Source: a virus
Taxonomy: Duplodnaviria; Caudoviricetes
IMG/VR virus record: IMGVR_UViG_3300025890_003315
Coordinates: 11,907-75,906 of that record
Length of the DNA: 64,000 nucleotides
Direction: 5' to 3' (one strand)
Under the pieces are notes generated by a model. That model saw nothing but the letters and a program-made list of their open reading frames with translations, had not been told where the DNA came from and ran no database searches. Positions 50,198 to 64,000 of the stretch are shown here, piece by piece. A program made the position numbers and the translations under genes. Within the stretch, counting starts at the first letter, position 1; each line of letters begins with the position of its first letter.

Positions 50198-50198
50198 T

Positions 50199-52109
50199 AT
50201 GTCCAAATTAAAGGTTCTTTATCATAGCGATAACTCTTTAGCTAAGACGGGCTTTGGTCGAGTATCCAAAGCTCTTCTTAGTTATTTGTACAAGACTGAC
50301 AAATATGAGATTCATCAGTATTGCTGCGGAACGCATGAAGCGCATCCAGATTTGGTGAGAACTCCTTGGAAAAGCCGCGGCTGTTTACCTGCTGATCAAA
50401 ATCAAATAAATGAACTGAACAAAGATCCTCAAGTCGCTCGCCAAGCCAGTTATGGAGCGAACCTTCTTGATAAAGCTATAGAAGAAATAAAACCAGATGT
50501 ATATATTGCGACACAAGACATTTGGGGTGTTGATTATGCTATTGATCGTCCTTGGTTTAAAAAAATTAATAGCGTAATTTGGACTACGTTAGACTCTCTT
50601 CCAATTCTTCCTTCTGCTGTTGAAGCCTCTAAAAAAGTTGACAATTTTTGGGTGTGGAGTAATTTTGCAGAAAAAGAACTGCATAAAATGGGTCGTACAA
50701 ATGTTAAAACAATACACGGATGTATTGACTCAAGCCCATTCTTTAAATATGAACAACAAAGAAAACTTGAGTTAAGAAAAAAATTTAATATAGACCCAAA
50801 TGATTTTGTTATTGGATTTGTATTCAGGAATCAATTAAGAAAATCTGTGCCAAATCTTTTGGAAGGTTTTTCTAAATTTAAAAAAAGAACAACTTCAAAA
50901 ACAAAACTTTTACTTCATACACATTTTTCCGAAGGTTGGGATATCCCACGCCTTATGGAACAATATGGAGTAGATCAATCTGACGTTCTTACTACTTATA
51001 TTTGTAAGAATTGCAAGAACTATTTTGTTCACACATTTGTTGGGCAAGAGAAACAATGCCCGATGTGCAAGTCTGAAAAAGCTTTATCCACAACAAGTAC
51101 AGGGCTTGGCGTTACTGAAGATCAACTCGCAGATATTTATAATTTAATGGACGTTTACTGCCACCCATTCACTAGTGGGGGTCAAGAAATTCCTATTCAA
51201 GAAGCAAAACTTTGTGAGCTTATTACTCTTGTCACAAATTATTCGTGCGGAGAAGAAATGTGCGAAGATAAAGACGGTAGCCTTGAGTTGGATTGGTCTA
51301 AATATACCGAACATGGAACGCAGTTTATCAAAGCTTCAACACGCCCAGAGTCTATCTGCAAACAGCTAACAAAAATTTTTAAGTTAGACGAAAAGAAAAA
51401 AACACAAAGAGGAGCGAAAGCGAGGCAATGGGCGTTGGACAACTTTTCTGCACAAAATGTTGGAGCAAAATTTGAGCAGTTTTTAGATAATTGCCAAAAA
51501 ATCAATTATGATTTTTCTATTAAAAAAGAAAATAATCAAAACCCAGATGCAGAAGTAAAAGATATTGCTGACAATGGAGAGTGGCTGATTCATTTGTACA
51601 ATGATATTTTAGCAATGAAAGTCGATCAAAATGATGATGGACATAAACATTGGATGACGCAGCTAGAAAGAGGAATGGATAGGGCCACAATTGTGGATTA
51701 CTTCAGAAAGGTTGCTCAAAATGATATCAATAAAAACAAGCAGATAGATTTTGCGGAACTTTTAGACAAAGATGATGAAGGGAAAAGGATTTTATATGTG
51801 ATGCCAGAAAGCATTGGGGACGTTTATATGTCCACTGCTCTTTTTAAAAATATCAAAAATCTTTATCCAGATTATAATTTGTACGTTGCTACAAAACCAG
51901 AGTATCACCAAATACTAGAGGGAAACCCTTATATTCATAAAACCATTCCTTTTGTAGAACAAATGAACAATATTTTATGGCTAGAAGGTCAAGGCGAACA
52001 CAATGGATATTTTGAAGTAGCTTATTTGCCACACGTAGGCACCCAAAAGATCTTCGACTATCAGCATAACGGTAAAGATAAAATCGAATTTGACTTATGC
52101 ACTTACTAG
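50199..52109 (+). CDS. Multidomain glycosyltransferase (GT4 + Zn ribbon + DUF4214-like + GT9-like start)
   Basis: TGFGRV, RNQLRKSVP.L, CKNC..CPMC, HPFTSGGQEIPIQEAKL, LY..IL....D..G..HW...L..G.DR..IV..F, SIGDV. Confidence 0.8.
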   Translation: MSKLKVLYHSDNSLAKTGFGRVSKALLSYLYKTDKYEIHQYCCGTHEAHPDLVRTPWKSRGCLPADQNQINELNKDPQVARQASYGANLLDKAIEEIKPDVYIATQDIWGVDYAIDRPWFKKINSVIWTTLDSLPILPSAVEASKKVDNFWVWSNFAEKELHKMGRTNVKTIHGCIDSSPFFKYEQQRKLELRKKFNIDPNDFVIGFVFRNQLRKSVPNLLEGFSKFKKRTTSKTKLLLHTHFSEGWDIPRLMEQYGVDQSDVLTTYICKNCKNYFVHTFVGQEKQCPMCKSEKALSTTSTGLGVTEDQLADIYNLMDVYCHPFTSGGQEIPIQEAKLCELITLVTNYSCGEEMCEDKDGSLELDWSKYTEHGTQFIKASTRPESICKQLTKIFKLDEKKKTQRGAKARQWALDNFSAQNVGAKFEQFLDNCQKINYDFSIKKENNQNPDAEVKDIADNGEWLIHLYNDILAMKVDQNDDGHKHWMTQLERGMDRATIVDYFRKVAQNDINKNKQIDFAELLDKDDEGKRILYVMPESIGDVYMSTALFKNIKNLYPDYNLYVATKPEYHQILEGNPYIHKTIPFVEQMNNILWLEGQGEHNGYFEVAYLPHVGTQKIFDYQHNGKDKIEFDLCTY

Positions 52110-53257
52110 AAAGATATGCTCTTGGCTGCGGGGTAAAAATAGACAAGCCATTTATTTATGACAAATACTTTCCATTGCCTATTGAAAAGTATATCACTCT
52201 TCAACCATTTTCAAAGTATCCTTCAAAATGTTACGACTACTGGAATGAAGTAGTCAGTATTTTAAATCCTATTGTAAAAAAACTTGGGATAACTATTGTT
52301 CAAATAGGTGGCCCTAATGAATCTAATATAGAAGGATGCATCAACATTCAAGGTCAGACTAGTATTCCCCAATGTGCTTATATAGTCAAAAATTCTCTTT
52401 TGCATTTTGGCGTAGATAGTTTTGCTGCCCATATTGCTTCTGGATTTAATAAAAAAATTGTTTGCATGTATTCTTCAAATTATATTGAGAATGCAAGTCC
52501 ATACTGGAGCAACAAAGAAGATTTAATCTTACTTTCTCCAGATTTTTCTGTTAAAAAACCAAGCTTTGCGACCATCGAAACCCCTAAATCGATAAATACT
52601 ATCAAGCCAGAAACAATAGTTCAAGCCGTACTTGATTTATTGGGAGTAAACCAAACAGTAAACCGAGAGACGCTATATATTGGCGAAACATACGGCAAGA
52701 AGACTTTTGAATGGATTCCAAATTGTTCGGTTGACACAAATTCTCTGAAAGTTGATAGTTTAATTTGCAGATACGATTTGCTACAAGACATTGAATGCGT
52801 AAAAAAACAAACAGAGATCTCAAAGCTTTGTATAGTTACAGATCAGCCGTTTGAATTACAAGTTAAAAAAGAACAAATAAAAGAAGTCGTATTTTTTATT
52901 GACAAGGAAAAGTACAAGCCGGGATTCAATAATTGGTGTAGACAAATTGACAATCTTGGAATTAAATTGATTGTGGTATCTAAACATCCAGAACACGAAA
53001 TCAATGACATCAAAATGGATTTTATGGATGTTGCGCCAATTTTTTATAAAAAACAAATTGATACAACCGCATTGCCAATTGGGTCAAAAGTAAAATACAA
53101 GAGTCGTAGATTGATCATATCAAAAGGTAAAATGTATCCTTCAGAACAAGCTGTAAAGACTAACACTTCAGTAGTTTCCGATAAAGATTTTGTTGTAGGA
53201 GAGGTAGACGCAGACTTTTTGAAAGAAGCGGAGTATTTTTATGTTGAAAAAATGTAA
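52097..53257 (+). CDS. GT9-like glycosyltransferase
   Basis: K.YDYW.EV, IVQIGG..E, G.T...Q.AYI....L..GVDSF..H.A. Confidence 0.7.
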   Translation: MHLLERYALGCGVKIDKPFIYDKYFPLPIEKYITLQPFSKYPSKCYDYWNEVVSILNPIVKKLGITIVQIGGPNESNIEGCINIQGQTSIPQCAYIVKNSLLHFGVDSFAAHIASGFNKKIVCMYSSNYIENASPYWSNKEDLILLSPDFSVKKPSFATIETPKSINTIKPETIVQAVLDLLGVNQTVNRETLYIGETYGKKTFEWIPNCSVDTNSLKVDSLICRYDLLQDIECVKKQTEISKLCIVTDQPFELQVKKEQIKEVVFFIDKEKYKPGFNNWCRQIDNLGIKLIVVSKHPEHEINDIKMDFMDVAPIFYKKQIDTTALPIGSKVKYKSRRLIISKGKMYPSEQAVKTNTSVVSDKDFVVGEVDADFLKEAEYFYVEKM

Positions 53258-53405
53258 AAGATGTCATGAGAATATGAGATCTTCTTACAGTACTTGTCCA
53301 CGATGCGGATTTTGCTCGCTTGAAAAGTGTGATTCAAAATCTTACGAGGACCATGACGATTTTCCTATTGAGGAAAAAGTCTTTCTGTCAAAAAAAACCC
53401 CTTGA
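53241..53405 (+). CDS. Small Zn-ribbon protein (54 aa, not in ORF track)
   Basis: MLKKCKRCHENMRSSYSTCPRCGF...; CxxC/CxxC, overlapping the upstream stop. Confidence 0.6.
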   Translation: MLKKCKRCHENMRSSYSTCPRCGFCSLEKCDSKSYEDHDDFPIEEKVFLSKKTP

Positions 53406-53429
53406 CTTTTCTAAAAATACATTTATAGT
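53402..53429 (+). promoter_or_regulatory. Sigma70-type promoter
   Basis: TTGACT-16-TATAGT with the ATG 9 nt downstream. Confidence 0.7.
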
Positions 53430-53438
53430 AGAGATACT

Positions 53439-53801
53439 ATGAACGTATTTGGTAAAATCAATCAAGTCTCTGAAGTCGCTAAACATTCTGACCGTTTCAA
53501 GTCTGCAAAATTCTTGCTTGAAACGCAAGAACAGTACCCTCAAACGATTCAGTTCCAACTAATTAACGATAAAACGTCTTTAGCCTCAAATCTCAAAGTA
53601 GGTCAATTCGCTAAGATCCACTTTAACATTAAAGGAACTGAATGGAATGGAAAACATTACGTTAACTTGAATGCTTGGAAAATTGAAGGTCAAAACAACC
53701 CTTCTCAAAAAATCAAGGAATTTCAAGAAGAGCAAGTGGAACGATCTAACGAAATTGAGGTCGAAGAAATTTCTCTAAATGAAGATGACTTGGAGTTTTG
53801 A
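53439..53801 (+). CDS. DUF3127-family OB-fold (SSB-like) protein
   Basis: F.LET.EQYPQ.I.FQL..DK......L.VG....F.IKG.EWNGK.YVNL.AWKI and acidic tail EDDLEF. Confidence 0.85.
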   Translation: MNVFGKINQVSEVAKHSDRFKSAKFLLETQEQYPQTIQFQLINDKTSLASNLKVGQFAKIHFNIKGTEWNGKHYVNLNAWKIEGQNNPSQKIKEFQEEQVERSNEIEVEEISLNEDDLEF

Positions 53802-53803
53802 CG

Positions 53804-53809
53804 GTGTAA
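53804..53809 (+). promoter_or_regulatory. GTGTAA motif
   Basis: 8 nt before GTG 53818. Confidence 0.6.
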
Positions 53810-53817
53810 AATAAATT

Positions 53818-54096
53818 GTGGTTTGCGAAGTAATAAGACCAGAGATAGGTGACAAAAGCGATAAAATAGAATGTCAAATTTGCGAACTAAGCTACACATT
53901 AGGTGAGTATGGCATTCTAAGCAAGCATCAAAAGTTGGGTTATTTTTATAACGAAGAACTTGGTTTTTTTTGTCACCAATGTCTGTTTGAAATAGCTACA
54001 AATTTGGCTTCGAAATCAGAAGAAAATAAATACAATGTTTTAGTAAAAGAAAATGACAAACAATATTTTTTGACATTTCATAAAAAAAATGCCTAG
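53818..54096 (+). CDS. Hypothetical Zn-binding protein
   Basis: CQIC ... CHQC. Confidence 0.65.
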   Translation: MVCEVIRPEIGDKSDKIECQICELSYTLGEYGILSKHQKLGYFYNEELGFFCHQCLFEIATNLASKSEENKYNVLVKENDKQYFLTFHKKNA

Positions 54097-54373
54097 AAGA
54101 AGTAAAAATGAATACAATGATTTCCCAGTTGTAATAAGTTCTCCGCGCTGGATAGAAAAAAAATTAGGCAGAACTGGAGCTATTGGTTTATGCTATAGTG
54201 ATGGTAATATCGAGATAGACCCTAGACTCAATAGTAAAGAGTATTTAGATACTTTGATTCACGAAATGCTTCATCATCATTTCCCAGAGTTAGAAGAAGA
54301 AGACGTAGCGATCATTGCTACAAAAATGATGCGGCAACTCTGGAAAGCTGGTTATAGAAAAATTAAAAAGTAA
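54089..54373 (+). CDS. Small zincin-like (HExxH) protein
   Basis: GLC......I.IDPRL......TLIHEMLH. Confidence 0.7.
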   Translation: MPRRSKNEYNDFPVVISSPRWIEKKLGRTGAIGLCYSDGNIEIDPRLNSKEYLDTLIHEMLHHHFPELEEEDVAIIATKMMRQLWKAGYRKIKK

Positions 54374-54397
54374 TTTCTTAAAAAAGATTATTAAATA

Positions 54398-55024
54398 ATG
54401 CCAAAATTAATAGTAAATCTGCCAGCAATACAATGTTACGTTAAAGGAGAGTACCTTCACAATTTAGAGAAAGATTTCAACAATTACTATGACTGTTTTT
54501 GGGTTACAGCAAAAGCGGTTCATGGTCGCGCTTTTTTGATAGAGTCAATGGTTCTTGATTACGGGGCTTTATACGACAAACTACCTCTTTCTGCGTACAC
54601 TTGGAAAAAAGATGTAAAAGACCCACTCCCTCTGGATTATTTGCAAATGTGGGACTGTTTGTCTTATGATATTGAAATTATATACAAAAGATTTCTTCGT
54701 GACAGAGACTGCAAAGTAATGTTGCCAAATAAAAAGTTCATGAAAGGACAATACATGTTCACTATTGACCCTTATGGTCAATTCACAGAAGCTGAGACCC
54801 CGAATGAACATAAGTCTTACAACTTCATAAAGCTTGATAACGGTCAATTTTGCGCCTATCCTAATAACAGAATCCAATTCTTAGATAAATCTTATATTCC
54901 AGCGGAACCAGAAAGACCGAAATTTAAAACTTGTCAACAATATTACTACGCAGAAAGCGATGTAACCAATTTCAGTCAGACAGACGAATACTTTTATCAA
55001 TCAAATGAAGAAGCTGAAACCTAG
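54398..55024 (+). CDS. Conserved phage hypothetical protein
   Basis: YDKLP..A...LQ.WDC.SY...G.Y.FTID...EHKS.N...LDNGQF..YPNNRI pattern common in aquatic phages. Confidence 0.65.
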   Translation: MPKLIVNLPAIQCYVKGEYLHNLEKDFNNYYDCFWVTAKAVHGRAFLIESMVLDYGALYDKLPLSAYTWKKDVKDPLPLDYLQMWDCLSYDIEIIYKRFLRDRDCKVMLPNKKFMKGQYMFTIDPYGQFTEAETPNEHKSYNFIKLDNGQFCAYPNNRIQFLDKSYIPAEPERPKFKTCQQYYYAESDVTNFSQTDEYFYQSNEEAET

Positions 55025-55433
55025 AAAAAGATTGTCTTGGCCTAAAACTGCTATAAAACTGGCTTTTACTATCGCAGAGTCAAGAAGCGAAGACCCACAT
55101 CTTCAAGTTGGAGCAGTGGCTTTTAAAAAAGATAAAAGTATTCTCGTCGGCTACAACGGTGCGCCATCAGGCATTGATATAGATTGGTCAGACCGTGATC
55201 ATCGTAGAGCAAGAGTGGTTCATGCAGAAGCCAATGTTTTGAATTATTGCAAGCCGGGAGAAGTTGATTTTGTAGCTTGTACTCATATTCCTTGTCAAGA
55301 ATGCTTGAAAGTGATTGCTTCAAAACAAGTTAAAACTGTCTTTTACTCAAAAGAAGCAGAAAACTATCCAACTGAAATTTCTGCTAAACTAGCTCAAGAA
55401 TTTAAAATAACTTTATTGAAAATCGAGGAATGA
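55005..55433 (+). CDS. dCMP deaminase-like protein
   Basis: S.DP...VGA, GYNG.P, HAE.N, PC..C. Confidence 0.9.
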   Translation: MKKLKPRKRLSWPKTAIKLAFTIAESRSEDPHLQVGAVAFKKDKSILVGYNGAPSGIDIDWSDRDHRRARVVHAEANVLNYCKPGEVDFVACTHIPCQECLKVIASKQVKTVFYSKEAENYPTEISAKLAQEFKITLLKIEE

Positions 55434-55804
55434 ATTTAATTAAAACATTATCCAGAAAGCCACAATACATAAAAAAAAATTGGGGATACGAACTAGTTTT
55501 TGCAAATGATGAACGCAATAACTATTGCGGAAAGATTCTTCATTTTAATAAAGGAGAAAAGTTTTCAATGCACTTTCATGATATAAAAGTGGAAACATTT
55601 TATATTTTAAATGGAAAACTCAGATTGAGTTTGCTAGACTTAAATTCAAAAGACGGCGAGGTTTTTACTGATACAATCGAAAAAGGGTTTTGTTTGGACT
55701 TACCCAGATTGCAGCCACATCAAATCGAAGCTCTTGAGGACTCTGACATAATTGAAGCAAGCACATTTCACAGAGACGAAGATAGCTACAGGATTTGGCG
55801 ATGA
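55430..55804 (+). CDS. Cupin (sugar isomerase-like)
   Basis: KNWG.E, YCGKIL, SMHFH..K.ETFY, P...H...A. Confidence 0.8.
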   Translation: MNLIKTLSRKPQYIKKNWGYELVFANDERNNYCGKILHFNKGEKFSMHFHDIKVETFYILNGKLRLSLLDLNSKDGEVFTDTIEKGFCLDLPRLQPHQIEALEDSDIIEASTFHRDEDSYRIWR

Positions 55805-56244
55805 TATACGTTTTATTTGGACAACCTGAATCTGGAAAAACTACTCTTGCGAATAATTTAAGGCTGGAGTTGAGAAAAATATATGGGCCAAATATGAGCA
55901 TCTTTAATATTGATGGCGATGAATTGCGATCCATGATTCCAAATAATAATTATACCATCGCTGGCAGATACGATAACGTAAGAAGAGCAAATGCGATTGC
56001 CACATATTTAAATCATATGGGATGCGAAGTAATAGTATCTTTAATCAATCCATATGAAGAATTAAGAAAAGAACTGAAAAATTTAAATCCAAAGGACACA
56101 AAATTCATTTATTTGCTTTCTGATAGAAAAAATAAAGAAAAATTCAATGTGGAAAATTTCGAGGTGCCAAAGAAAACAGACTTGACTTTGAATACAAGTC
56201 AGCTTAATATACAACAGTGCTTGAAAACTATTCTCGACCTGTGA
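55801..56244 (+). CDS. Adenylylsulfate kinase-like P-loop kinase
   Basis: GQPESGKTTLA, IDGD.LR, Y...GR..N, VS.I.PY...R. Confidence 0.75.
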   Translation: MIYVLFGQPESGKTTLANNLRLELRKIYGPNMSIFNIDGDELRSMIPNNNYTIAGRYDNVRRANAIATYLNHMGCEVIVSLINPYEELRKELKNLNPKDTKFIYLLSDRKNKEKFNVENFEVPKKTDLTLNTSQLNIQQCLKTILDL

Positions 56245-56441
56245 AACAACAAGTTGAATACGATGTTAAAGTTTATTGCGATCAAATTTCCACAATAGCA
56301 ATGTGTATTGGTACAGCTTTTATGCAAGGCAACTCTTCTCAAGAGCAAACAAAGCTGGAGTTAGAAAATATTTGCAATAAAGTTGAAAATGTAATCAGAA
56401 TGATAAATCAAAATAAGACAGAACAAGGAGATGTTCAATAA
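56241..56441 (+). CDS. Hypothetical protein
   Basis: GTGA overlap with the upstream stop. Confidence 0.5.
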   Translation: MKQQVEYDVKVYCDQISTIAMCIGTAFMQGNSSQEQTKLELENICNKVENVIRMINQNKTEQGDVQ

Positions 56442-56464
56442 TCAGAAAAACTGATGAAGACGCA

Positions 56465-56974
56465 ATGAATCTTTGGAAAAATTTATCTTTAAAAATTCAC
56501 GAAGACTACTTTAGCGTAGTAGAAATTCCGAGAGGATCAAATGCTAAGTATGAATACAATCATCTTCTTGGAGTTTTCGAGCTTGACCGATGCTTGGTGA
56601 CAGCAATGAATTATCCAACCAATTATGGTTTTATGCCTCAAACCATTGCTCCAGATGGCGACCCGCTCGACTGTATGATTTTTACAGATGTCCCACTCAA
56701 CAGCGGCACAGTAGTTCGCGGTATTCCCCTTGCAGTTCTTAAAATGTTAGACAAAGGACAAAGGGATGACAAAATTCTTTTTATGCCAAAATTTAACACA
56801 AGATACTCTAATCATAAAGAAATTAAAAAAGAGTATTTGGATGTATACGAAGATTTTTTTAGAAATTATAAAAATTTAACTTCTGGCTCTATAGAAACCA
56901 TAGGTTGGGGAGACAAAAAAGAAGCGGAAGAAATAATTGCTGCTGCCAGCGAAAGTTTTAAGCGTGAAGGATAA
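56465..56974 (+). CDS. ppa: Inorganic pyrophosphatase (family I)
   Basis: VEIPRGS..KYEY, LDR, YP.NYGF.PQT...DGDPLD, D.G.RD.K, FF..YK. Confidence 0.93.
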   Translation: MNLWKNLSLKIHEDYFSVVEIPRGSNAKYEYNHLLGVFELDRCLVTAMNYPTNYGFMPQTIAPDGDPLDCMIFTDVPLNSGTVVRGIPLAVLKMLDKGQRDDKILFMPKFNTRYSNHKEIKKEYLDVYEDFFRNYKNLTSGSIETIGWGDKKEAEEIIAAASESFKREG

Positions 56975-56977
56975 AAT

Positions 56978-57574
56978 ATGGGAATGTTCGACAATGTGGC
57001 TTGTGCGTATCCGCTTCCAATGCCGGAAGACTTGGGTGAACTTACTCAAGAGCAAATACAAAACGCCAGTTATCAAACTAAAAATCTTGCAAACTGTCTT
57101 GATAGGTTCAGGATTGATAAAGATGGATTCTTGTGGCGCGAAAAAGTCGATGGATATCACGAAGAGGGCGACCCAAAAGCCAAATCTATGATGGGTAGAC
57201 TTGGGAGATTTGTAGAAACCAGCAGAAATTGGCGAAAAGAAATCATAACTTGTACTGTTGATTTTTACGAGTTTTTTACAGAACAGGAGTCTAATGATTA
57301 TTGGGTTGAGTATCAAGCCTGTTTTGTGGATGGTAAATTAAACCAAATTTCTCTTATTAAATTTGAAAAAGAAGATAATGCAGAAAGAAAAGCCAGAGCA
57401 GAAAAATGAAAAAAACAACTCAAAGATCGAAATGAGTTTTTAAACAAGTGGTGTATCAAATATTGCTATGCTCCTTGGAGATACATTGTAAGAATGGCGT
57501 TTAGAACTTACCGTAAAATTAAGCGTCATATCCCTTCTGACTGGCAAGTGGAGAATTTTTTATTACCTTGGTAA
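56978..57574 (+). pseudogene. Hypothetical protein (MGMFD family) whose frame continues past an in-frame TGA at 57407
   Basis: The annotated ORF ends at 57409, but the same frame stays open for 54 more sense codons (KKQLKDRNEFLNKWCIKY...LLPW*) to TAA at 57572-57574. Confidence 0.5.
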
Positions 57575-57575
57575 T

Positions 57576-57848
57576 ATGAGACCTTCACGCAAAGATAAAA
57601 AAACAGTTTTTTTAAAAAAAGTACTGAACGAACTTTTTAAGAGAGTTGGGTTTGATGGATACGACCAAAAACTTGTTGACAAATATCCAAACAACTGGTA
57701 TGTTCAGAGAGAGTGGACGGAAGAACAAGAAGAGTCCTACAAACAGTGGTTTGCAGAGCAACATCAAAAGGCTTTTAAATCAACAAAAGAGTATGCGCGA
57801 TCAGAAGCGGGTTGGTTTCTGTTTTCGTATGGATGGAAACTTAAATAA
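57576..57848 (+). CDS. Hypothetical protein
   Basis: 90 aa, Trp-rich, operon-packed. Confidence 0.7.
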   Translation: MRPSRKDKKTVFLKKVLNELFKRVGFDGYDQKLVDKYPNNWYVQREWTEEQEESYKQWFAEQHQKAFKSTKEYARSEAGWFLFSYGWKLK

Positions 57849-57861
57849 GGAAAATGGATAA

Positions 57862-58050
57862 ATGAATATGTTTAAATCAGAAAGAAAACAAAAAGCCCAA
57901 AACCTAGCTGATCGGTTGTATCAAATGGTGAGATTTTCTGATATGCGAGCGTATAATTCTTTGATATCTGACAAAGAAAGGGAGATCCATAAAGTTACAT
58001 CAGAGACGTTGATTTTTTGCGCTAAACTTATCGAAAAAGAAATTGTATGA
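57862..58050 (+). CDS. Hypothetical protein
   Basis: 62 aa, operon-packed. Confidence 0.6.
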   Translation: MNMFKSERKQKAQNLADRLYQMVRFSDMRAYNSLISDKEREIHKVTSETLIFCAKLIEKEIV

Positions 58051-58641
58051 AGCTCAACGAACAGTTTGACAAAAAGCCTAAACCCGCCAATAATAGTGAC
58101 ACGTTGGTTGGAATGATTTTGCAAAGCTATGACGATCAGATTTGATACCACATTAAATCAGTTTGAGTCTTACTGCTGGATTGCCGGTGGTGCAGTTTTG
58201 AGTCATTTGATGCAGACCCCGATAAAGGATCTGGACATCTTTTTTTCTACAGAATCAAACAGGCAAAATGCCGTTGATCGTTTGATCAGAAAAGGTGGCA
58301 TCCATGTCAAGAAATTAAGGCTTGGCGACTCAATTGAATTTGAAGATAAAGTTTATGACTTGCTTCACATGGGGGCAACGCCACAAGAAACTATTGAGTG
58401 TTTCGATTATACTGTTTGCAGTATTGCGGTAGACTTGCTTGGTAAAACATACAAGCACCCAGACTTTGACGAACATTTTGAAAACAGAAAACTCGTTTAT
58501 ACCGGTGGATATGATAGATGGTTTTCCGACATTTCAAAAACTGTCAACCTCAACGTACTGAAAGCAACAAGAATGGCTAGATACTTGAAAAAAGGATTTG
58601 ACATTGACAACGAAAACATAAAAAACATTTTTAAAACATGA
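58047..58641 (+). CDS. Pol-beta-family nucleotidyltransferase (CCA/poly(A) polymerase head-like), possibly frameshifted near 58141
   Basis: WIAGGAV......KDLDIF and FDYTVC. A 32-codon ORF (58047-58145) joins the 58129 frame if one T of ATTT at 58140-58143 is removed. Confidence 0.65.
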
Positions 58642-58805
58642 GCAATGCCTTTTTAAATTCAGAACGCCCATTTCACTCTTTGACGCAAAAAGAATTTGAC
58701 GAACTCAAAAAGAGTGGTATGCTCTGGGAGTTGTATCCAGAAGCACCTGAATATTGGAAAGAGATCGAAGAATATGAGAGAAATCAAATTCAGAGTTTGG
58801 GATAA
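58638..58805 (+). CDS. Small hypothetical protein (55 aa, not in ORF track)
   Basis: MSNAFLNSERPFHSLTQKEFDELKKSGMLWELYPEAPEYWKEIEE...; ATGA overlap. Confidence 0.6.
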   Translation: MSNAFLNSERPFHSLTQKEFDELKKSGMLWELYPEAPEYWKEIEEYERNQIQSLG

Positions 58806-59094
58806 TTTAAAGAAGTCTTTTCTTAAAGATAAAGGTGTTTTCATTCATACTGAAAAGCCTTTTGTCCAACACGATCAAGGTCATATTTTCCAACAGTTCA
58901 CTGGTCTAAAAGACAAGAACGGTATGGAGATTTATGAGGGTGATATTGTCAAAACTCCGAAAAGCCATATGTTTAGAAAAAATATACTTGTAGTTGAATA
59001 TCGCGAGAATAGATTCGTACCGGATGATATTCTCGATAAAGATGATGTTGAAGTAATTGGTAATATATTTGAAAAAAAAGAACTTCTTACTTAA
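58774..59094 (+). CDS. YopX-family protein
   Basis: MREIKFRVWD...QQFTGLKDKNG.EIYEGDIV...EVIGNIFE. Confidence 0.9.
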   Translation: MREIKFRVWDNLKKSFLKDKGVFIHTEKPFVQHDQGHIFQQFTGLKDKNGMEIYEGDIVKTPKSHMFRKNILVVEYRENRFVPDDILDKDDVEVIGNIFEKKELLT

Positions 59095-59272
59095 TGAAGA
59101 GTTCTACACATTAGAAGAAGAACTTTTAATAGCAAACCACGTCACAATTGAAATATGCGAATGCTGTGGTGATTATTATCCTATAATTAAATACTACTGC
59201 GACAAATATACAAATAACTTCATTGAAATAACATTAGAAGGATATTTTTATTGTGAGAAATGTTTAGGATGA
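59057..59272 (+). CDS. Hypothetical Zn-binding protein
   Basis: CECC ... CEKC; start uncertain. Confidence 0.5.
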   Translation: MVIYLKKKNFLLNEEFYTLEEELLIANHVTIEICECCGDYYPIIKYYCDKYTNNFIEITLEGYFYCEKCLG

Positions 59273-59288
59273 AGATTCATGTCTTTGA

Positions 59289-59294
59289 GTGTAA
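59289..59294 (+). promoter_or_regulatory. GTGTAA motif upstream of the DUF1501 operon
   Basis: 26 nt before ATG 59321. Confidence 0.5.
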
Positions 59295-59320
59295 TTTCTT
59301 ATGATAAGAAAGAGCAAAAC

Positions 59321-60718
59321 ATGAAACAATATTGCAATGAAAACGATATCAAACACTCAGATTTAATAATGACAAAAAGAGAGTTTTTGTCTAAATTTGG
59401 TATGGGTTTTGGTACTTTAGGGCTAACCGATATTCTTTCCTTGGATTTAAATGCTGCTTCAACGCAGTCTAATATCCATTATCCCGGTAAAAAAGCCAAA
59501 AGAGTAATTCAAATATTGTTTAGTGGAGGTCAGTCTCACATTGACACTTGGGACGACAAGCCAGAGTTGAGAAAAATTGACGGTCAACCAGTTCCCGGTA
59601 TGAATGGTTTGGCTAATGGTTCTCCATTCGAATTTAAAAATTATGGAAAATCTGGATTAAAAGTTAGCTCCGCTTTTGATAAAACGGCTAAATTTATCGA
59701 TGATGCACTCATAATCAACTCCTTAACTACAGACGTTCCTGCTCATGAAGTTGCTACAATCATGATGAACACTGGAAATCTTCGTTTGGTTCGCCCAAGC
59801 GTTGGTAGCTGGGTTGTTTATGGTCTTGGTAGCATGAACGAAAATTTACCAGCCTTTGTTAGCCTTCGCACTGGAGGCTTGCCTCTTGGCGGCACACAGA
59901 ACTTTGGTAGTGCTTTTTTACCGGGAATGTATCAAGCCACGCCAATCGATACTTCTCTCAGAAGTGTTGATCAAATGATCGCAAATATTAAAAATAAAAA
60001 TATATCTTCTGTTGAGCAAAGAAAACAACTTGACGCATTTATATTGATGAATGAAGTTCATAAGCAAAAGTTGATGAAAGATAAAGAGCTTGAAAGCAGA
60101 ATGAATAGTTTTGAGCTTGCATTCAAGATGCAAACAGAAGCTACTGACGCTTTTGATATCAACAAAGAAGATAAAAAAACTAGAGATTTGTATGGCAATA
60201 CTGCTCAAGGCAAGCAAATGCTAATTGCTCGCAGACTTGCTGAAAGAGGAGTTCGTTTCGTCCAAGTTTGGACTGGAGGCTGGGACAATCACAATGAAAT
60301 TAAAAGGTCTCTTGGTAATGCAGCTTCACAAGTTGATCAACCAATTGCGGCACTCATCCAAGACCTCAAGCAGAAAGGAATGCTTGAAGACACTCTTATT
60401 GTAATGACTGGAGAATTTGGTCGTACTCCAACAAGAGATGGGAACGGAGGTAGATATGGATACGGTCGCTCACATTGGAATAGAGCCATGAGTTGCGTTA
60501 TGGTTGGAGGTGGAGTCAAAGGTGGTACAGTTTATGGCAAAACTGATGAATTTGGCAAAGACGTAATTGAAAATAAAATGAATATTCACGATCTTCATTC
60601 AACAATTCTTTACGCCCTTGGCATGGATCACCGTAAGTTAGAATACGTTTATAATAATAGACCATTTAGACTAACAGACGTATCAGACTCTGAACCATTA
60701 AAGGAATTATTCATATGA
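59321..60718 (+). CDS. DUF1501-family protein (Tat-like signal; PVC-type, sulfatase-like fold)
   Basis: MTKREFLSKFG.GFG.LGL, KAKRVI..F.GG.SH.DTWD.KP, RPS.GSW..YGLGS.NENLP.FV, FGSAFLPG.YQ, ARRL.ERGVRFVQV..GGWD.H, GEFGRTP, G.T+DE.G, H.TIL..LG.DH..L.Y. Confidence 0.92.
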   Translation: MKQYCNENDIKHSDLIMTKREFLSKFGMGFGTLGLTDILSLDLNAASTQSNIHYPGKKAKRVIQILFSGGQSHIDTWDDKPELRKIDGQPVPGMNGLANGSPFEFKNYGKSGLKVSSAFDKTAKFIDDALIINSLTTDVPAHEVATIMMNTGNLRLVRPSVGSWVVYGLGSMNENLPAFVSLRTGGLPLGGTQNFGSAFLPGMYQATPIDTSLRSVDQMIANIKNKNISSVEQRKQLDAFILMNEVHKQKLMKDKELESRMNSFELAFKMQTEATDAFDINKEDKKTRDLYGNTAQGKQMLIARRLAERGVRFVQVWTGGWDNHNEIKRSLGNAASQVDQPIAALIQDLKQKGMLEDTLIVMTGEFGRTPTRDGNGGRYGYGRSHWNRAMSCVMVGGGVKGGTVYGKTDEFGKDVIENKMNIHDLHSTILYALGMDHRKLEYVYNNRPFRLTDVSDSEPLKELFI

Positions 60719-63519
60719 AAAAGATAATATGGTTTTTTATTTGTTTTTTTATATTTTTCATTTACGATTGCAACGCGCAAAATAGCCAAGATATAAAATT
60801 TTTTGAAACAAAGATCAGGCCCGTTTTAGTAGAAAAGTGCTATAAATGCCATAGTACTAAAAGCGAAAAAATAAAAGGTGGTTTAAAATTAGATACGAAG
60901 GACGGCACCTTAAAAGGTGGCAATACTGGTCCAGCCATTGTTCCAAAAGATTTGAATAAAAGCTTGCTTGTCAAATCAATTCGCTACACTGATGAAGATT
61001 TAAGTATGCCTCCAAAAGAAAAGCTTCCTGATAATATTATCAAAGACTTTGAGACTTGGGTTAAAATGGGAGCTTATGATCCAAGAACGTCCACTTCTAC
61101 AATTACAGCTTCTGAAGCTGCTGCTAAAAAACATTGGGCTTACGAACCGTTAGTAAAACCTTCGGTGCCAAATGCGAAAAGCAAATGGATAAATAATGAA
61201 ATAGACTCTTTTATCTTTTTAACAGCTAAATCTAAAAACGTCCTACCTTCCATTGAAGCTGATAGAAAAACTCTGCTTCGTCGCGTGTATTATACATTGA
61301 CGGGTTTGCCGCCAACCATAGAGGAAGTAAATGAATTTGTTAACGATGAATCTTCAAGTGCTTATGAGAAAGTTGTCAATCGTTTGCTTTCGACTCGCGC
61401 ATTTGGAGAGAAATGGGCTAGATATTGGTTTGATACCTCTCGTTATAGCGATACTACTGGATCTGTAAATAGAAATAGGGAAAATAGATACACGTACTCT
61501 TGGACTTACAGAAATTACGTGATTGACGCTTTTCAAAACGATAAACCATTTAATCAGTTCATCGTTGAACAAATTGCTGCCGACAAGATTCCCAATCTTC
61601 CCAAACAAAATCTAGCGGCTCTTGGGTTTCTTACTCTTGGAAAGAACTCTGGTAACGCTAACGACATTATTGATGATCGCATTGATGTTATCACCAAAGG
61701 GCTTATGGCTACTACTGTTGTTTGTGCAAGATGCCATGATCATAAGTTTGATCCCGTTTCAACCAAAGATTATTACGCTCTTCATGGAATTCTAAACAGT
61801 AGTTATGAGCCTACCGATAAAGATAAGCCGCTTCTGTTAACTATAACAGAAACTCCAGAGTATAAAAATTATTTCGCCAAAAAACTCGCTTTAGAGCAAA
61901 ATGTAGAAAACTTTAAAATAAAAAAATACGTTGAAGCATTTCAAGACTTTCAAACTAATACTTATAAGTGGATGTATAGCTCGTATGCTCTCCAAGATGT
62001 GACAAGTTCCAACAAGCAAGCTTACATCAGAACAAATACCCTTAATCCCCGCATGATGCAAAGATGGGATCAAGCTAGAAAATTTACTATCAATAAAAAG
62101 GTAAATAATAAAAATACTAAAATAAGTCATCCAGTTTTCCTCCCATACTCTAAAATGTATAATGTCAAGAAAGATTTTGGCGCAGAATATAAGAAGATGT
62201 TAGAAGCAAATAAGGACGACATCAACCCGTATCTTTATTCAAAAATTAAAACAAGCAGAGTACAGTCAATGTACGATTTGGCGGTTATTTATCAACAAGT
62301 AATTATTGAAGCTCAAAAGAGAAATTTTAAATTTCAAGGTAAAAAAGACAAAGCTCCAGAAGGGTTAATTGATTTTTGTAATGCTATTTACTCAAATAAT
62401 GGTCCGATGGATATGAACAAGGATAACTTCCAAAGATATTATAGCGACAATGGTAAAACAATGCGTTATGACAGGGAGGTAAGAAGAGAAATCGCCAAGC
62501 TTGTAACACACGAATTGACAGATCCTGCTACTCCTCCAAGAGCGATGGCTATGTATGACAAAAAAAGACCTTCAAATAGCAGTGTGATGATAAATGGAGA
62601 CCCAAGAAAAAGAGGGGCAGTTGTTCAAAGGCGATTTATAGAATTTTTTAATAATGTAAATTCAAACATATTTACCAATGGAAGCGGAAGACTTGAATTG
62701 GCTATGGCTATAGCAAATCCAAAAAACCCACTTACACCAAGAGTTGCAGTAAGCAGGATCTGGCAAAGAATTATGGGGAACAGCTTTGTTGCGACCCCAG
62801 ACGACTTTGGAATGAATACTCCTCGCCCTGTTCATAATAATTTAATAAACTGGATGGCGGCTGAATTTATTGAAAAAGGATGGTCACAAAAACATATTAT
62901 TAAAAAATTAGTAATGTCCGCTACTTACAGGCAGTCTAGTTTAATAAGTCCCAAATACTACAATATCGACCCAGATAACGAGTATTACCATAGAGCTAAT
63001 TTACAACGCTTAGATTTCGAAGGATTAAGAGATACAATTCTTTCGGTGTCTGGAATATTAGAAGAAGGAAAATTCAAGCAGCACATTGATCTTTTCGCAA
63101 AAGGCAATAATAGAAGAACTATTTATGGAACTATAGATAGAAGTAGATTTCCAGAGCTTTTGCTTACATTTGATTTTGCAACCCCAGAAATGACAACCGG
63201 CAAGCGATTTGAAACAACAGTTCCTAAACAGGCTTTGTACTTGATGAATTCTGATGATATGAAAAACTACTGCGAAGCAGTATTCAATGATTACAGAGTA
63301 GCCAGATCAATTGACTTTGAAACCCGTGTTACAACATTGTTTAACATATTTTACCAAAGAGATCCTAACAGTCAAGACATGATAATTGCCAAAAGGTTTT
63401 TTGAAGCAGAAGAAATTGATCCAACAAATATGTCTGAAAAAGAAGAAAAAGAGTTCAACAAATGGAAGCAATATATCCAACTTCTGTTTATGAGTAACGA
63501 GTTAATTTATGTAAATTGA
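60715..63519 (+). CDS. Planctomycete cytochrome c / DUF1549 / DUF1553 (PSD1) protein with two heme-binding motifs
   Basis: Sec signal; FFETKIRP.L..KCYKCH (60838-60852); HWAY.P; AD+.TL.RR.Y..LTGLPP; FGE.WARYW.D..RY.D; CARCHDHKFDP (61723-61737); GSGRLELA..I.NP.NPLT.RV.V.R.WQ; RL..E..RD..L.VSG; T.P.QALYLMN. Confidence 0.92.
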   Translation: MKKIIWFFICFFIFFIYDCNAQNSQDIKFFETKIRPVLVEKCYKCHSTKSEKIKGGLKLDTKDGTLKGGNTGPAIVPKDLNKSLLVKSIRYTDEDLSMPPKEKLPDNIIKDFETWVKMGAYDPRTSTSTITASEAAAKKHWAYEPLVKPSVPNAKSKWINNEIDSFIFLTAKSKNVLPSIEADRKTLLRRVYYTLTGLPPTIEEVNEFVNDESSSAYEKVVNRLLSTRAFGEKWARYWFDTSRYSDTTGSVNRNRENRYTYSWTYRNYVIDAFQNDKPFNQFIVEQIAADKIPNLPKQNLAALGFLTLGKNSGNANDIIDDRIDVITKGLMATTVVCARCHDHKFDPVSTKDYYALHGILNSSYEPTDKDKPLLLTITETPEYKNYFAKKLALEQNVENFKIKKYVEAFQDFQTNTYKWMYSSYALQDVTSSNKQAYIRTNTLNPRMMQRWDQARKFTINKKVNNKNTKISHPVFLPYSKMYNVKKDFGAEYKKMLEANKDDINPYLYSKIKTSRVQSMYDLAVIYQQVIIEAQKRNFKFQGKKDKAPEGLIDFCNAIYSNNGPMDMNKDNFQRYYSDNGKTMRYDREVRREIAKLVTHELTDPATPPRAMAMYDKKRPSNSSVMINGDPRKRGAVVQRRFIEFFNNVNSNIFTNGSGRLELAMAIANPKNPLTPRVAVSRIWQRIMGNSFVATPDDFGMNTPRPVHNNLINWMAAEFIEKGWSQKHIIKKLVMSATYRQSSLISPKYYNIDPDNEYYHRANLQRLDFEGLRDTILSVSGILEEGKFKQHIDLFAKGNNRRTIYGTIDRSRFPELLLTFDFATPEMTTGKRFETTVPKQALYLMNSDDMKNYCEAVFNDYRVARSIDFETRVTTLFNIFYQRDPNSQDMIIAKRFFEAEEIDPTNMSEKEEKEFNKWKQYIQLLFMSNELIYVN

Positions 63520-63522
63520 ATC

Positions 63523-63550
63523 TTGACCTTTTTCAAATTCCGTCTACCAT
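63523..63550 (+). promoter_or_regulatory. Sigma70-type promoter of the tRNA cluster
   Basis: TTGACC-16-TACCAT, 8 nt before tRNA-Ser. Confidence 0.7.
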
Positions 63551-63558
63551 ATAAGTAT

Positions 63559-63648
63559 GGTTGGATGGCTGAGTGGTCTAAAGCAACAGTTTGCTAAACT
63601 GTCGTACTTGAAAGAGTACCGGGGGTTCGAATCCCCCTCCAACCGCCA
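63559..63648 (+). tRNA. tRNA-Ser(GCT)
   Basis: Acceptor GGTTGGA/TCCAACC, anticodon arm ACAGT-TT-GCT-AA-ACTGT, long variable arm, GTTCGAATC, encoded CCA. Confidence 0.95.
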
Positions 63649-63649
63649 A

Positions 63650-63723
63650 GCATCGTTAGTTTAATGGTAAAATAGAAGTCTTCCAAACTTCAGTTGTGAG
63701 TTCGATTCTCACACGATGCCCCA
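63650..63723 (+). tRNA. tRNA-Gly(TCC)
   Basis: Acceptor GCATCGT/ACGATGC, GAAGT-CT-TCC-AA-ACTTC, TTCGATT T-loop, encoded CCA. Confidence 0.92.
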
Positions 63724-63767
63724 ATTTACAGAAAGTAACTCATAAAGAACGTAATAAAGATTTTTCA

Positions 63768-63845
63768 CCGCGCATCGCCTAGCTTGGTATGGCACCTGCT
63801 TTGGGAGCAGGAATAACGGGAGTTCGAATCTCTCTGCGCGGACCA
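63768..63845 (+). tRNA. tRNA-Pro(TGG)
   Basis: Acceptor CCGCGCA/TGCGCGG, CCTGC-TT-TGG-GA-GCAGG, TTCGAAT T-loop, encoded CCA. Confidence 0.92.
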
Positions 63846-63851
63846 TTTTTA

Positions 63852-63857
63852 GTGTAA
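63852..63857 (+). promoter_or_regulatory. GTGTAA motif upstream of tmRNA
   Basis: 12 nt before the tmRNA 5' end. Confidence 0.55.
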
Positions 63858-63869
63858 ATAAAGTTTTAT

Positions 63870-64000
63870 GGGGGCGTACTGGTTTCGACAGTATTGCTGA
63901 CGAATGAAGAAGCACGTATGAGTTGGTCGAATGGTCTCATTAAAAATCGACTAAAAAAACTAAATGGCGAAGATAACATTGCCGGTCTTCTTGACGAAGC
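63870..64000 (+). ncRNA. ssrA: tmRNA (5' portion; truncated by the window end)
   Basis: GGGGGCGTACTGGTTTCGAC 5' signature. Pseudoknot 1: ATGAG 63918-22 / CTCAT 63936-40 and GGTCGA 63925-30 / TCGACT 63947-52. TAAAT then the resume codon at 63966, giving GEDNIAGLLDEA... Confidence 0.88.

What the first reader, a model, noticed from the sequence alone, without database searches (positions are those of the whole stretch)
59289..63519. Phage-borne DUF1501 plus di-heme PSD1/planctomycete-cytochrome operon
Seen: an intact, ATGA-coupled gene pair in phage-like AT-rich codon usage. The DUF1501 protein has a Tat-like KREFL signal; the 934-aa partner has a Sec signal and two CxxCH motifs. The pair lies downstream of the phage GTGTAA motif and between phage genes (YopX) and phage tRNAs. 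Established: this pair is expanded in Planctomycetes and Verrucomicrobia and its function is unknown. Inference: a domesticated auxiliary system exported to the host periplasm or surface during infection, for redox or polysaccharide-related metabolism. I am not aware of it as a recognised phage AMG, and the phage context could reveal the function of the family.
Basis: partly seen in the sequence, partly recalled or inferred. Interest (0 to 1): 0.85.

Follow-up and report, generated by a model that had tools for sequence, protein, structure and literature searches.

The report
Phage-borne DUF1501 and haem-motif partner pair
A large uncultured water phage carries an intact, strongly conserved copy of a two-gene exported enzyme module (a phosphatase/sulfatase-fold protein plus a large haem-motif protein) that is abundant but functionally unexplained in Verrucomicrobia and Planctomycetes. 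Related copies sit in dozens of other uncultured phages, so it is a real and recurrent phage auxiliary gene set, not an assembly accident.

Summary
ORF 59279-60718 is a full-length DUF1501 protein. ORF 60715-63519, coupled by an ATGA overlap, is a PSCyt1/PSCyt2/PSD1 protein with a signal peptide and two CxxCH motifs. The window is a tailed phage.

Four independent contigs from other samples keep the pair at 98-99% identity. GC3 (0.30) matches the phage, against 0.68-0.93 in the closest cellular copies, and dN/dS is about 0.1. A chimera or a decaying passenger is therefore excluded.

The pair is not unique. An IMG/VR scan found 39 viral loci with DUF1501 relatives, 17 of them with the partner. 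None of 50,697 deposited phage records has it, and no paper in the searched library mentions it. This scan has already noted phage DUF1501/PSD1 on other DNA (52 notes, at least 38 genomes).

The window's copy lies in a virus-only clade, sister to Verrucomicrobiota copies. At least two transfers are needed.

Function is still unknown. The best reading is a host-derived periplasmic metal-dependent ester hydrolase with a haem-motif helper, used for nutrient supply during infection. DUF1501 has an alkaline-phosphatase-superfamily fold but no sulfatase motif. The partner matches no solved fold.

This is a new member of a known kind, of moderate interest.

The parts
59289..59294 (+). GTGTAA hexamer upstream of the probable start; candidate phage promoter element (unproven)
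   Evidence: Present. Other intergenic copies lie 8-10 nt before start codons, but the hexamer is not enriched overall (22 found, 26 expected).
59301..59324 (+). 7-codon mini-ORF (ATG 59301 to TGA 59322-59324) whose stop overlaps ATG 59321; possible leader or coupling element
   Evidence: Read directly from the sequence. Inference only.
59279..60718 (+). DUF1501 protein: a Tat-type (Lys-Arg variant) exported enzyme of the alkaline-phosphatase superfamily. Longest ORF 479 aa; probable start 59321 (465 aa)
   Evidence: Pfam PF07394, 2.9e-130, full length. AF2 model pLDDT 75.7. VIA Z 19-20 to NPP phosphodiesterases, tied with sulfatases and PafA. All family-invariant residues are present. dN/dS 0.09.
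60715..63519 (+). PSCyt1-PSCyt2(DUF1549)-PSD1(DUF1553) protein, 934 aa, with a Sec-type signal and two CxxCH motifs; translationally coupled (ATGA) to DUF1501
   Evidence: Pfam hits 4.9e-17, 2e-67 and 1.7e-65. Motifs at residues 42 and 337 are kept in all 16 full-length viral partners. AF2 pLDDT 81.5, mostly helical. No PDB fold match. dN/dS 0.11.
58696..59094 (+). YopX-family phage gene: upstream boundary of the pair; its allele varies between strains
   Evidence: PF09643 1.6e-17, phrog_98. It is replaced by a 40%-identical allele in L001, L213 and L214.
63559..63845 (+). tRNA-Ser(GCT), tRNA-Gly(TCC) and tRNA-Pro(TGG): downstream boundary of the pair
   Evidence: ARAGORN. The same tRNAs are present in L001.
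63870..64000 (+). 5' part of a phage tmRNA gene, cut by the window end
   Evidence: Collinear with L001:13156-13587, which is Rfam tmRNA RF00023 at 121.8 bits.

Best explanation
SHOWN:
- This is a phage-encoded copy of the bacterial DUF1501 + PSCyt1/PSCyt2/PSD1 two-gene module.
- It sits inside a large tailed phage.
- It has been in phages long enough to take on phage codon usage, and it is kept by purifying selection.
- It belongs to a virus-only branch whose nearest cellular relatives are Verrucomicrobiota copies with the same DUF1501-then-partner, 4-nt-overlap layout.

INFERRED (how it works):
- During infection the DUF1501 protein folds and takes up its metal in the cytoplasm, then leaves by the Tat route.
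- The partner leaves by Sec and, if its CxxCH motifs are real haem sites, is haem-loaded by the host's cytochrome c maturation system.
- In the periplasm or at the outer membrane the two act together.
- DUF1501 would be a metal-dependent hydrolase of phospho- or sulfo-esters. It has an NPP/alkaline-phosphatase-type Asp/His/His site. It has no Ser/Thr/formylglycine nucleophile; an Asp sits in that place.
- The large helical partner would bind or present the substrate, or pass electrons.
- The benefit to the phage is most likely extra supply of phosphate (or sulfate), or of nucleotide precursors, for replication.
- The host is probably a member of the Verrucomicrobiota.
For: Phage identity of the window:
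- Tape measure, tail J/L/K, class II RNR, DnaB and Pol III alpha.

Contiguity:
- L001/L215, L213, L214 and L216, from other samples, keep the pair plus tRNAs and tmRNA at 98-99% identity.

Amelioration:
- GC3 is 0.30 for both genes, against 0.28-0.35 for other phage genes and 0.68-0.93 for the nearest cellular DUF1501 genes.

Selection:
- dN/dS is 0.09 and 0.11.
- All invariant residues, both CxxCH motifs and the signals are kept across viral copies.

Phylogeny:
- The window lies in a virus/metagenome-only clade (support 98), sister to a Verrucomicrobiota clade.
- The best identity to a species-representative genome is 57%.
- The same gene order and 4-nt overlap occur in Opitutaceae-type loci L042 and L047.

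Fold:
- Alkaline-phosphatase superfamily, Z 19-20.
- Sulfatase-like 'GDHGR' aligns to GEFGR.

Context in phages:
- Neighbours are dCMP deaminase, PPase, a kinase, ThyX, RNR, GMP reductase and phosphoesterases.
- A related phage (G004) places a type I signal peptidase directly before its module.

Literature:
- The module and its export signals are described, with function unknown, in PMC3542564 and PMC5615132.
Against: - No substrate, metal or activity is known for any member of either family.
- The fold match does not separate phosphodiesterase, phosphatase, sulfatase or transferase.
- The mapping of active-site residues rests on motif comparison from memory plus predicted secondary structure, not on a superposition.
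- The residue at the nucleophile place (D152) is not invariant (D41, E9, N5, P4 among 59 sequences).
- The Lys-Arg Tat motif may export less well than Arg-Arg.
- Clustering with nucleotide genes is weak evidence, because phage auxiliary genes cluster anyway.
- The host is not identified. The phage's 35% GC is far below that of known Verrucomicrobiota carrying the closest copies.
Confidence: 0.55

Rival explanations
1. Envelope remodelling. The exported pair changes a surface or periplasmic polymer of the infected cell (LPS, capsule, a sulfated or phosphorylated glycan). This would block superinfection, mask the receptor or ease release. DUF1501 would act as a transferase or esterase like other envelope enzymes of the same fold.
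For: - The alkaline-phosphatase superfamily includes LtaS, YejM/PbgA and phosphoethanolamine transferases. These are among the Foldseek hits, and there is a weak NCBIfam hit to YejM.
- The phage carries many glycan genes.
- An APS-kinase-like gene and a pyrophosphatase lie 2-3 kb upstream.
- In bacteria, PSCyt proteins often carry carbohydrate-binding domains (PMC3542564, PMC5615132).
Against: - The phage partner has no recognisable carbohydrate-binding domain.
- DUF1501 has no membrane anchor of the LtaS/EptA kind.
- The APS-kinase-like match is far below the family cut-off (52 against 139 bits), so it may be another kinase.
- No glycan gene is adjacent to the pair in other phage lineages.
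Confidence: 0.2
2. Redox module. The partner is a true c-type cytochrome that feeds or drains electrons for a periplasmic oxidoreductase reaction of DUF1501. This would sustain energy or detoxification in the infected cell.
For: - CxxCH at residue 42 together with invariant Met98-Pro99 looks like a class I cytochrome c domain. The second motif, CARCHDHKFD, is invariant.
- Tat export often marks cofactor-bearing redox enzymes (PMC3542564).
- PSCyt genes are enriched in oxic-layer Verrucomicrobia (PMC5615132).
Against: - DUF1501 has a hydrolase or transferase fold with no known redox member.
- Some relatives of the partner lack PSCyt1 altogether.
- Haem binding has not been shown for any member.
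Confidence: 0.12
3. Artefact or passenger. The pair is host DNA joined to phage DNA by mis-assembly, or a recently picked-up gene pair with no role.
For: - One related contig (L001) does change partner inside the tmRNA gene, with a GC jump. This shows that chimeras or recombinants occur right next to this locus.
- One viral partner gene (in L005) is split.
Against: - Four independent assemblies share both junctions.
- GC3 equals that of the phage.
- dN/dS is about 0.1.
- The cluster of proteins at 90% identity or more has 21 members on contigs up to 150 kb.
- The virus-only clade has deep divergence.
Confidence: 0.03

Closest known systems
DUF1501 + PSCyt1/PSCyt2/PSD1 'conserved genetic module' of Planctomycetes, Verrucomicrobia and Lentisphaerae (Kamneva et al. 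2012, PMC3542564; PSCyt genes of freshwater Verrucomicrobia, He et al. 2017, PMC5615132)
   Same: Same two Pfam architectures, adjacency, Tat-type signal on DUF1501, signal peptide and CxxCH motifs on the partner, and unknown function. The nearest cellular copies (Opitutaceae-type) share the gene order and the 4-nt overlap.
   Different: It is encoded by a phage and has phage codon usage. It belongs to a virus-only clade at most 57% identical to any sampled cellular genome. The twin-arginine motif is Lys-Arg. There is no added lectin or CBM domain. It occurs in one or a few copies, not tens.
Alkaline-phosphatase superfamily enzymes (NPP phosphodiesterases, PafA phosphatases, S1 sulfatases, phosphonate monoester hydrolases)
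   Same: Core fold (VIA Z 18-20 over residues 70-479). A probable Asp/His/His metal site (D336, H338, H399). The sulfatase 'GDHGR' segment aligns to GEFGR.
   Different: No C/S-x-P-x-R formylglycine motif and no Ser/Thr nucleophile motif: D-V-P-A-H sits in that place. The second-site Asp and His are replaced (G83, F380). There is a long helical insert at residues 244-322. No member has been characterised.
Phosphate-acquisition auxiliary genes of cyanophages (pstS, phoA) (from my own knowledge, not checked here)
   Same: Host-derived, exported, periplasmic proteins carried by phages, thought to raise nutrient supply for nucleotide synthesis during infection.
   Different: Those families have known substrates and regulation. 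Here the substrate is unknown and a large partner protein is co-inherited.
Other phage-borne DUF1501 sets noted by this scan (e.g. e1-5813377, e1-5401012, e1-5653154; AI notes)
   Same: The same module, or DUF1501 alone, in large uncultured aquatic phages, read as captured from Verrucomicrobia or Planctomycetes.
   Different: This one is a lambda-tailed, Pol III-type phage with 35% GC. Its partner keeps PSCyt1. A near-identical strain (L213) adds a short DUF1501 paralogue after the tmRNA.

Membership tests
DUF1501 (PF07394) | Full-length match to the family profile above the curated cut-off | tested here: met
   435.4 bits against 27; residues 73-478 on profile positions 1-390 of 390.
DUF1501 (PF07394) | Family-invariant residues present (D92, K94, D141, H156, D336, H338, E379, R382, R397, H399, D423, H440) | tested here: met
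   Invariant in 59 aligned viral and cellular sequences, the window's included.
DUF1501 (PF07394) | Twin-arginine (Tat) signal | tested here: inconclusive
   The motif is T-K-R-E-F-L followed by a hydrophobic stretch. Relatives have T-R-R-x-F-L. The Lys-Arg form recurs in viral copies. Export was not tested.
PSCyt1/PSCyt2/PSD1 proteins (PF07635, PF07583, PF07587) | All three domains in order, above their cut-offs | tested here: met
   62.7, 227.6 and 221.2 bits.
PSCyt1/PSCyt2/PSD1 proteins (PF07635, PF07583, PF07587) | Conserved CxxCH in PSCyt1 and C-x-R-C-H-D-H-K-F-D in PSCyt2 | tested here: met
   CYKCH at residue 42 and CARCHDHKFD at residue 337. C42, C45, H46, C337, C340, H341, D342 and H343 are invariant in 50 sequences.
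c-type cytochrome | Covalently bound haem | not testable with these tools
   Only the motif and the Met98-Pro99 pair are seen. The predicted PSCyt1 domain has low confidence (pLDDT 39-47).
DUF1501-PSCyt/PSD1 gene module (Kamneva 2012) | The two genes adjacent and co-oriented | tested here: met
   ATGA overlap at 60715-60718. The same order and 4-nt overlap occur in L042 and L047. The partner is adjacent in 17 of 39 viral loci and in most cellular loci.
S1 sulfatases | C/S-x-P/A-x-R formylglycine motif | tested here: not met
   No such motif anywhere in the protein. The only Cys residues are 19 and 406.
Alkaline-phosphatase superfamily (fold level) | Core alpha/beta fold shared with NPP, AP and sulfatase | tested here: met
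   VIA Z 19.9 (rmsd 3.0, 242 residues aligned) to 7cba NPP. Z 18-19 to sulfatases and PafA. Foldseek E about 1e-5.
Phage auxiliary metabolic gene | Host-type gene inside a viral genome, with viral genes on both sides | tested here: met
   59 kb of phage genes lie upstream. Downstream lie tRNAs and a tmRNA, and further phage-side sequence in L213 and L214.
Phage auxiliary metabolic gene | A known metabolic reaction | not testable with these tools
   No member of either family has a known reaction.

The most novel reading that the evidence does not exclude
Phages of Verrucomicrobiota-type hosts have kept, for a long time and through several captures, a minimal form of the largest orphan exported gene family of PVC bacteria, because it performs a specific periplasmic reaction that limits phage yield. 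That reaction would be release of phosphate or nucleotide precursors from an abundant organic ester. The enzyme would be an alkaline-phosphatase-fold protein that uses a carboxylate in place of the usual Ser/Thr/formylglycine nucleophile and needs a new-fold haem partner. The phage copies (single, small, without lectin domains, in one lineage sitting beside a phage signal peptidase) would then be the shortest route to the family's chemistry.
Probability: 0.25. Interest if true: 0.7.

Novelty: new member of a known kind. Interest (0 to 1): 0.5.

Why it matters
DUF1501 and PSCyt/PSD1 proteins number tens to hundreds per genome in Planctomycetes and Verrucomicrobia. They have had no assigned function since 2004-2012.

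Phages keep only genes that pay during infection. Repeated capture, deep divergence and strong purifying selection in phages therefore argue that the pair is a self-sufficient functional unit with a direct effect on cell physiology. The pair also points to Verrucomicrobiota-type hosts for a set of large freshwater and estuarine phages for which no host is known.

The phage versions are compact and lack accessory domains, so they are convenient constructs for expression, haem and metal analysis, complex formation and substrate screening.

Tried and rejected
Tools not available:
- No whole genome is held for the window.

Searches that found nothing useful:
- Deposited phage genomes: no tblastn match for either protein. 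megablast found only a 44-nt tRNA match.
- PHROGs and NCBIfam gave nothing useful for the pair.
- PDB sequence search gave only weak sulfatase/LtaS matches around GEFGR.
- The partner's model found no solved fold by Foldseek (best E 0.08) or VIA wide (best Z 5.2 on the last 90 residues). The model is long, and single domains were not folded separately, so this does not show that the fold is new.
- The ESM Atlas returned only other PSD/PSCyt clusters at chance-level scores.

Host search:
- Looking for a host through the tmRNA 5' end found Negativicutes and others, which reflects a conserved tRNA-like stretch and is uninformative.

GTGTAA as an enriched motif:
- Not supported.

Second module in this phage (PSCyt2/PSD1 + two DUF1501, L001:14247-19489):
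- I first read it as part of this phage and withdrew that.
- The right part of L001 is 99% identical to another phage (L037/G004).
- GC jumps from 0.35 to 0.42 inside the tmRNA gene.
- It is therefore a chimera or a recent recombinant.


Full report
**What is in the sequence**

The window has two overlapping ORFs on the plus strand, 59279-60718 (479 aa) and 60715-63519 (934 aa). The stop of the first overlaps the start of the second as ATGA.

The first ORF matches Pfam DUF1501 over the whole profile (2.9e-130). It also has weak sub-threshold hits to Sulfatase and Phosphodiest around residues 329-387.

The second ORF carries PSCyt1 (42-102), PSCyt2/DUF1549 (162-363) and PSD1/DUF1553 (658-895). 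It has a hydrophobic N-terminus ending CNA|Q and two CxxCH motifs, CYKCH at 42 and CARCH at 337.

The DUF1501 N-terminus reads T-K-R-E-F-L followed by a Gly-rich hydrophobic stretch. This is a Lys-Arg version of the relatives' T-R-R-x-F-L.

The longest ORF probably over-extends. Close relatives are 465 aa and begin at the equivalent of M15 (ATG 59321). GTGTAA is not enriched in the window as a whole (22 found, 26 expected). Intergenic copies do sit 8-10 nt before start codons, so its role stays open.

**The surroundings are a phage**

Large ORFs of the window match:
- a tape measure protein, a lambda J-like central tail fibre, and minor tail proteins L and K;
- a class II ribonucleotide reductase, DnaB and a Pol III alpha-type polymerase;
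- sugar-modifying enzymes.

Just upstream of the pair lie a dCMP deaminase, a cupin, a P-loop kinase with a sub-threshold adenylyl-sulfate-kinase match, an inorganic pyrophosphatase and a YopX gene. Downstream lie tRNA-Ser, tRNA-Gly and tRNA-Pro and the start of a tmRNA.

GC is even across the window at 0.31-0.41. GC3 of the two genes (0.30) equals that of the phage's replication and tail genes (0.28-0.35). The nearest cellular DUF1501 genes have GC3 of 0.68-0.93.

**Not a chimera, and under selection**

An IMG/VR contig (L001/L002, the same record as L215) is collinear with window 49998-64000 at about 98% identity across both junctions of the pair.

Three further metagenome contigs from other samples (L213, L214, L216) keep YopX-DUF1501-partner-tRNAs-tmRNA at 98-99%.

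The 90%-identity protein cluster of the DUF1501 gene has 21 members, on contigs up to 150 kb, from several data sources.

Between the window and L001:
- the DUF1501 gene has 19 nucleotide and 5 amino-acid differences (dN/dS 0.09);
- the partner has 83 and 25 (dN/dS 0.11).

**How common it is in viruses**

Neither protein has a tblastn match in 50,697 deposited phage genomes.

A profile-based scan of IMG/VR returned 39 loci with DUF1501 relatives at 36-99% identity. All but one of these loci have 31-44% GC, against mostly 50-74% for 80 loci from cellular species-representative genomes.
- 17 viral loci also encode a PSCyt/PSD1 partner next to DUF1501.
- Many others carry DUF1501 together with a short DUF1501 paralogue (419-434 aa) and no partner.

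Shared genes show several phage lineages. One of them shares tail protein L, dCMP deaminase and the cupin with this window.

The contigs with the closest non-self copies are large phages:
- G002: 164 kb, CheckV 100% complete, with a terminase.
- G004: 119 kb, with a terminase.
- G001 and G003: 174 and 123 kb, 41-49% complete, even GC of 0.41, 24 and 20 tRNA genes, and a class II RNR 65-67% identical to the window's.

All 16 full-length viral partners keep a signal peptide and both CxxCH motifs.

BFVD holds one automatically named DUF1501 protein from an uncultured Caudovirales phage.

The searched literature (12 papers naming DUF1501, 7 naming the PSCyt or DUF1549/1553 terms) does not mention phage copies. 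This scan's own notes list 52 earlier findings of phage DUF1501/PSD1 in at least 38 genomes. My results agree with them, but they are not independent evidence.

**Origin**

I built a 212-row FastTree and a 70-row IQ-TREE (LG+C20+F+G4). In both:
- The window's DUF1501 lies in a clade made only of IMG/VR and unlabelled metagenome proteins (support 98).
- That clade is sister to a clade of Verrucomicrobiota copies (Opitutaceae, Pedosphaeraceae/Limisphaerales, Chthoniobacter; support 98).
- The Verrucomicrobiota clade itself contains a second virus-only clade next to Chthoniobacter.
- A third viral group sits among Planctomycetota copies, and the short paralogues form a further virus-only clade.

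An AU test rejects joining the first two viral clades against the cellular rows (delta lnL 119.7, p 3e-49). The caveat is that the groups were named after the tree was seen.

The Verrucomicrobiota relatives share the DUF1501-then-partner order and, in L042 and L047, the same 4-nt overlap. Most Planctomycetota loci have the partner first.

This points to old capture from Verrucomicrobiota-type cells, followed by spread among phages. It makes such bacteria the likely hosts, but no direct host link was found.

**What the proteins look like**

The AF2 model of DUF1501 (pLDDT 75.7; core above 90) has the alkaline-phosphatase-superfamily fold. VIA gives Z 19.9 (rmsd 3.0 over 242 residues) to NPP phosphodiesterases. 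This is statistically tied with sulfatases and PafA-type phosphatases at Z 18-19.

There is no C/S-x-P-x-R sulfatase motif.

By motif comparison with NPP and sulfatase motifs recalled from memory, and by the predicted strand-helix order, I infer the following:
- D336/H338 and H399 form the Asp/His/His metal site.
- E379-F380 replace the Asp-His of the second site. HMMER aligns GEFGR with sulfatase GDHGR.
- D-V-P-A-H (152-156) occupies the place of T-F-P-N-H or C-x-P-x-R, so a carboxylate stands where the nucleophile normally is.

D152 is common but not invariant. No structural superposition at residue level was possible, so this mapping is inference.

The partner's model (pLDDT 81.5) is mostly helical and matched nothing in the PDB. 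Its domains were not folded separately.

**Function**

Nothing is known experimentally for either family. I commit to the following model:
- It is a two-protein periplasmic enzyme.
- DUF1501 is a metal-dependent ester hydrolase, exported folded by Tat.
- The partner, exported by Sec and possibly haem-loaded, binds substrate or passes electrons.
- The phage uses it to raise the supply of phosphate, sulfate or nucleotide precursors.

Support for this model is indirect:
- the fold;
- the export signals;
- the strict conservation;
- the company these genes keep in different phage lineages: ThyX (lying between DUF1501 and its partner in L022, L023 and L038), RNR, GMP reductase, dCMP deaminase, metallophosphoesterases and pyrophosphatase.

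In phage G004 a type I signal peptidase directly precedes a PSCyt2/PSD1-DUF1501-DUF1501 trio. It has the SGKSMEPTL, KRVIA and GDNS boxes and one membrane helix. This fits real export of these proteins during infection.

Envelope remodelling and a redox role remain possible.

**A caution on the neighbouring island**

In L001 the signal peptidase and the trio follow the tmRNA. But from position 13661 onward L001 is 99% identical to G004, and GC rises from about 0.35 to about 0.42 within the tmRNA gene.

Other strains differ at this point:
- L213 has a 419-aa short DUF1501 paralogue after the tmRNA. GC there is 0.371, the same as the rest of the contig.
- L214 has a phosphoesterase.

What follows in the window's own genome is therefore unknown. 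L001 is either a recombinant or an assembly chimera joined at the conserved tmRNA.

**Verdict**

The phage-AMG reading is supported. The claims of rarity, di-haem chemistry and a polysaccharide or redox role are not.

It is a further member of a recurrent but unpublished class of phage-borne DUF1501/PSCyt-PSD1 modules, and it is useful mainly as a compact handle on an orphan bacterial family.

Noticed in passing
L001:13613-14227 (= L037:6864-7328; just beyond the window's end in the related contig): Phage-encoded type I signal peptidase (Pfam Peptidase_S26, 5.9e-12; boxes SGKSMEPTL, KRVIA, GDNS; one membrane helix). It sits directly before a PSCyt2/PSD1 + DUF1501 + short DUF1501 trio in the 119-kb phage G004.
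   Followed up: partly
L001:13407-13661: The related IMG/VR contig switches from window-like (98%) to L037-like (99%) sequence inside the tmRNA gene, and GC jumps from 0.35 to 0.42. This is either a recombinant or an assembly chimera joined at a conserved RNA gene.
   Followed up: partly
L213:7049-8308: A strain 98% identical to the window carries a 419-aa short DUF1501 paralogue (33% identical to the window's DUF1501, 69% to the G004 one) right after the tmRNA. The short paralogues form a virus-only clade with Arg-Arg Tat motifs and an altered site (A86, E89, G152, A154, A/G440).
   Followed up: partly
window 63870-64000 and L001:13156-13587: Phage tmRNA (Rfam 121.8 bits) with an unusually long predicted tag of 32 residues that starts GEDNIA and ends VVA.
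   Followed up: partly
window 55795-56244 and 56465-56974: A P-loop kinase with a sub-threshold adenylyl-sulfate-kinase match (52 bits, cut-off 139) lies next to an inorganic pyrophosphatase. With the sulfotransferase fusion that another reader noted upstream of the window, this could be a phage PAPS supply. The kinase's substrate is unproven.
   Followed up: partly
window 59301-59324: A 7-codon mini-ORF starts 6 nt after GTGTAA. Its TGA overlaps the probable DUF1501 start (ATG 59321) as ATGA.
   Followed up: no
DUF1501 N-termini of the window, L001, L003, L007, L008, L017, L019 and L034: The Tat motif is Lys-Arg (TKR[EQ]FL) in these viral copies and in 26 metagenome members of the viral clade. 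No true Lys-Arg Tat motif was seen in the cellular loci sampled; the regex hits there were the beta-1 strand.
   Followed up: partly
G001 (L121-L129) 124.7-136.5 kb and G003 (L130-L136) 105-116 kb: These large phages carry the closest non-self pair and have arrays of 24 and 20 tRNA genes. In G001 one of them has anticodon CTA (called tRNA-Pyl by ARAGORN), a possible amber suppressor.
   Followed up: no
L005:11379-14164: The PSCyt/PSD1 partner is split into 537-aa and 345-aa ORFs in this viral contig (frameshift, decay or sequencing error).
   Followed up: no
L012:4823-7606: A class I ribonucleotide reductase large subunit interrupted by an intein with a LAGLIDADG domain, next to DUF1501 in another phage lineage.
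   Followed up: no
window 59057-59272: A small 71-aa ORF between YopX and DUF1501 with two Cys pairs (C-E-C-C ... C-E-K-C); it looks like a zinc ribbon.
   Followed up: no
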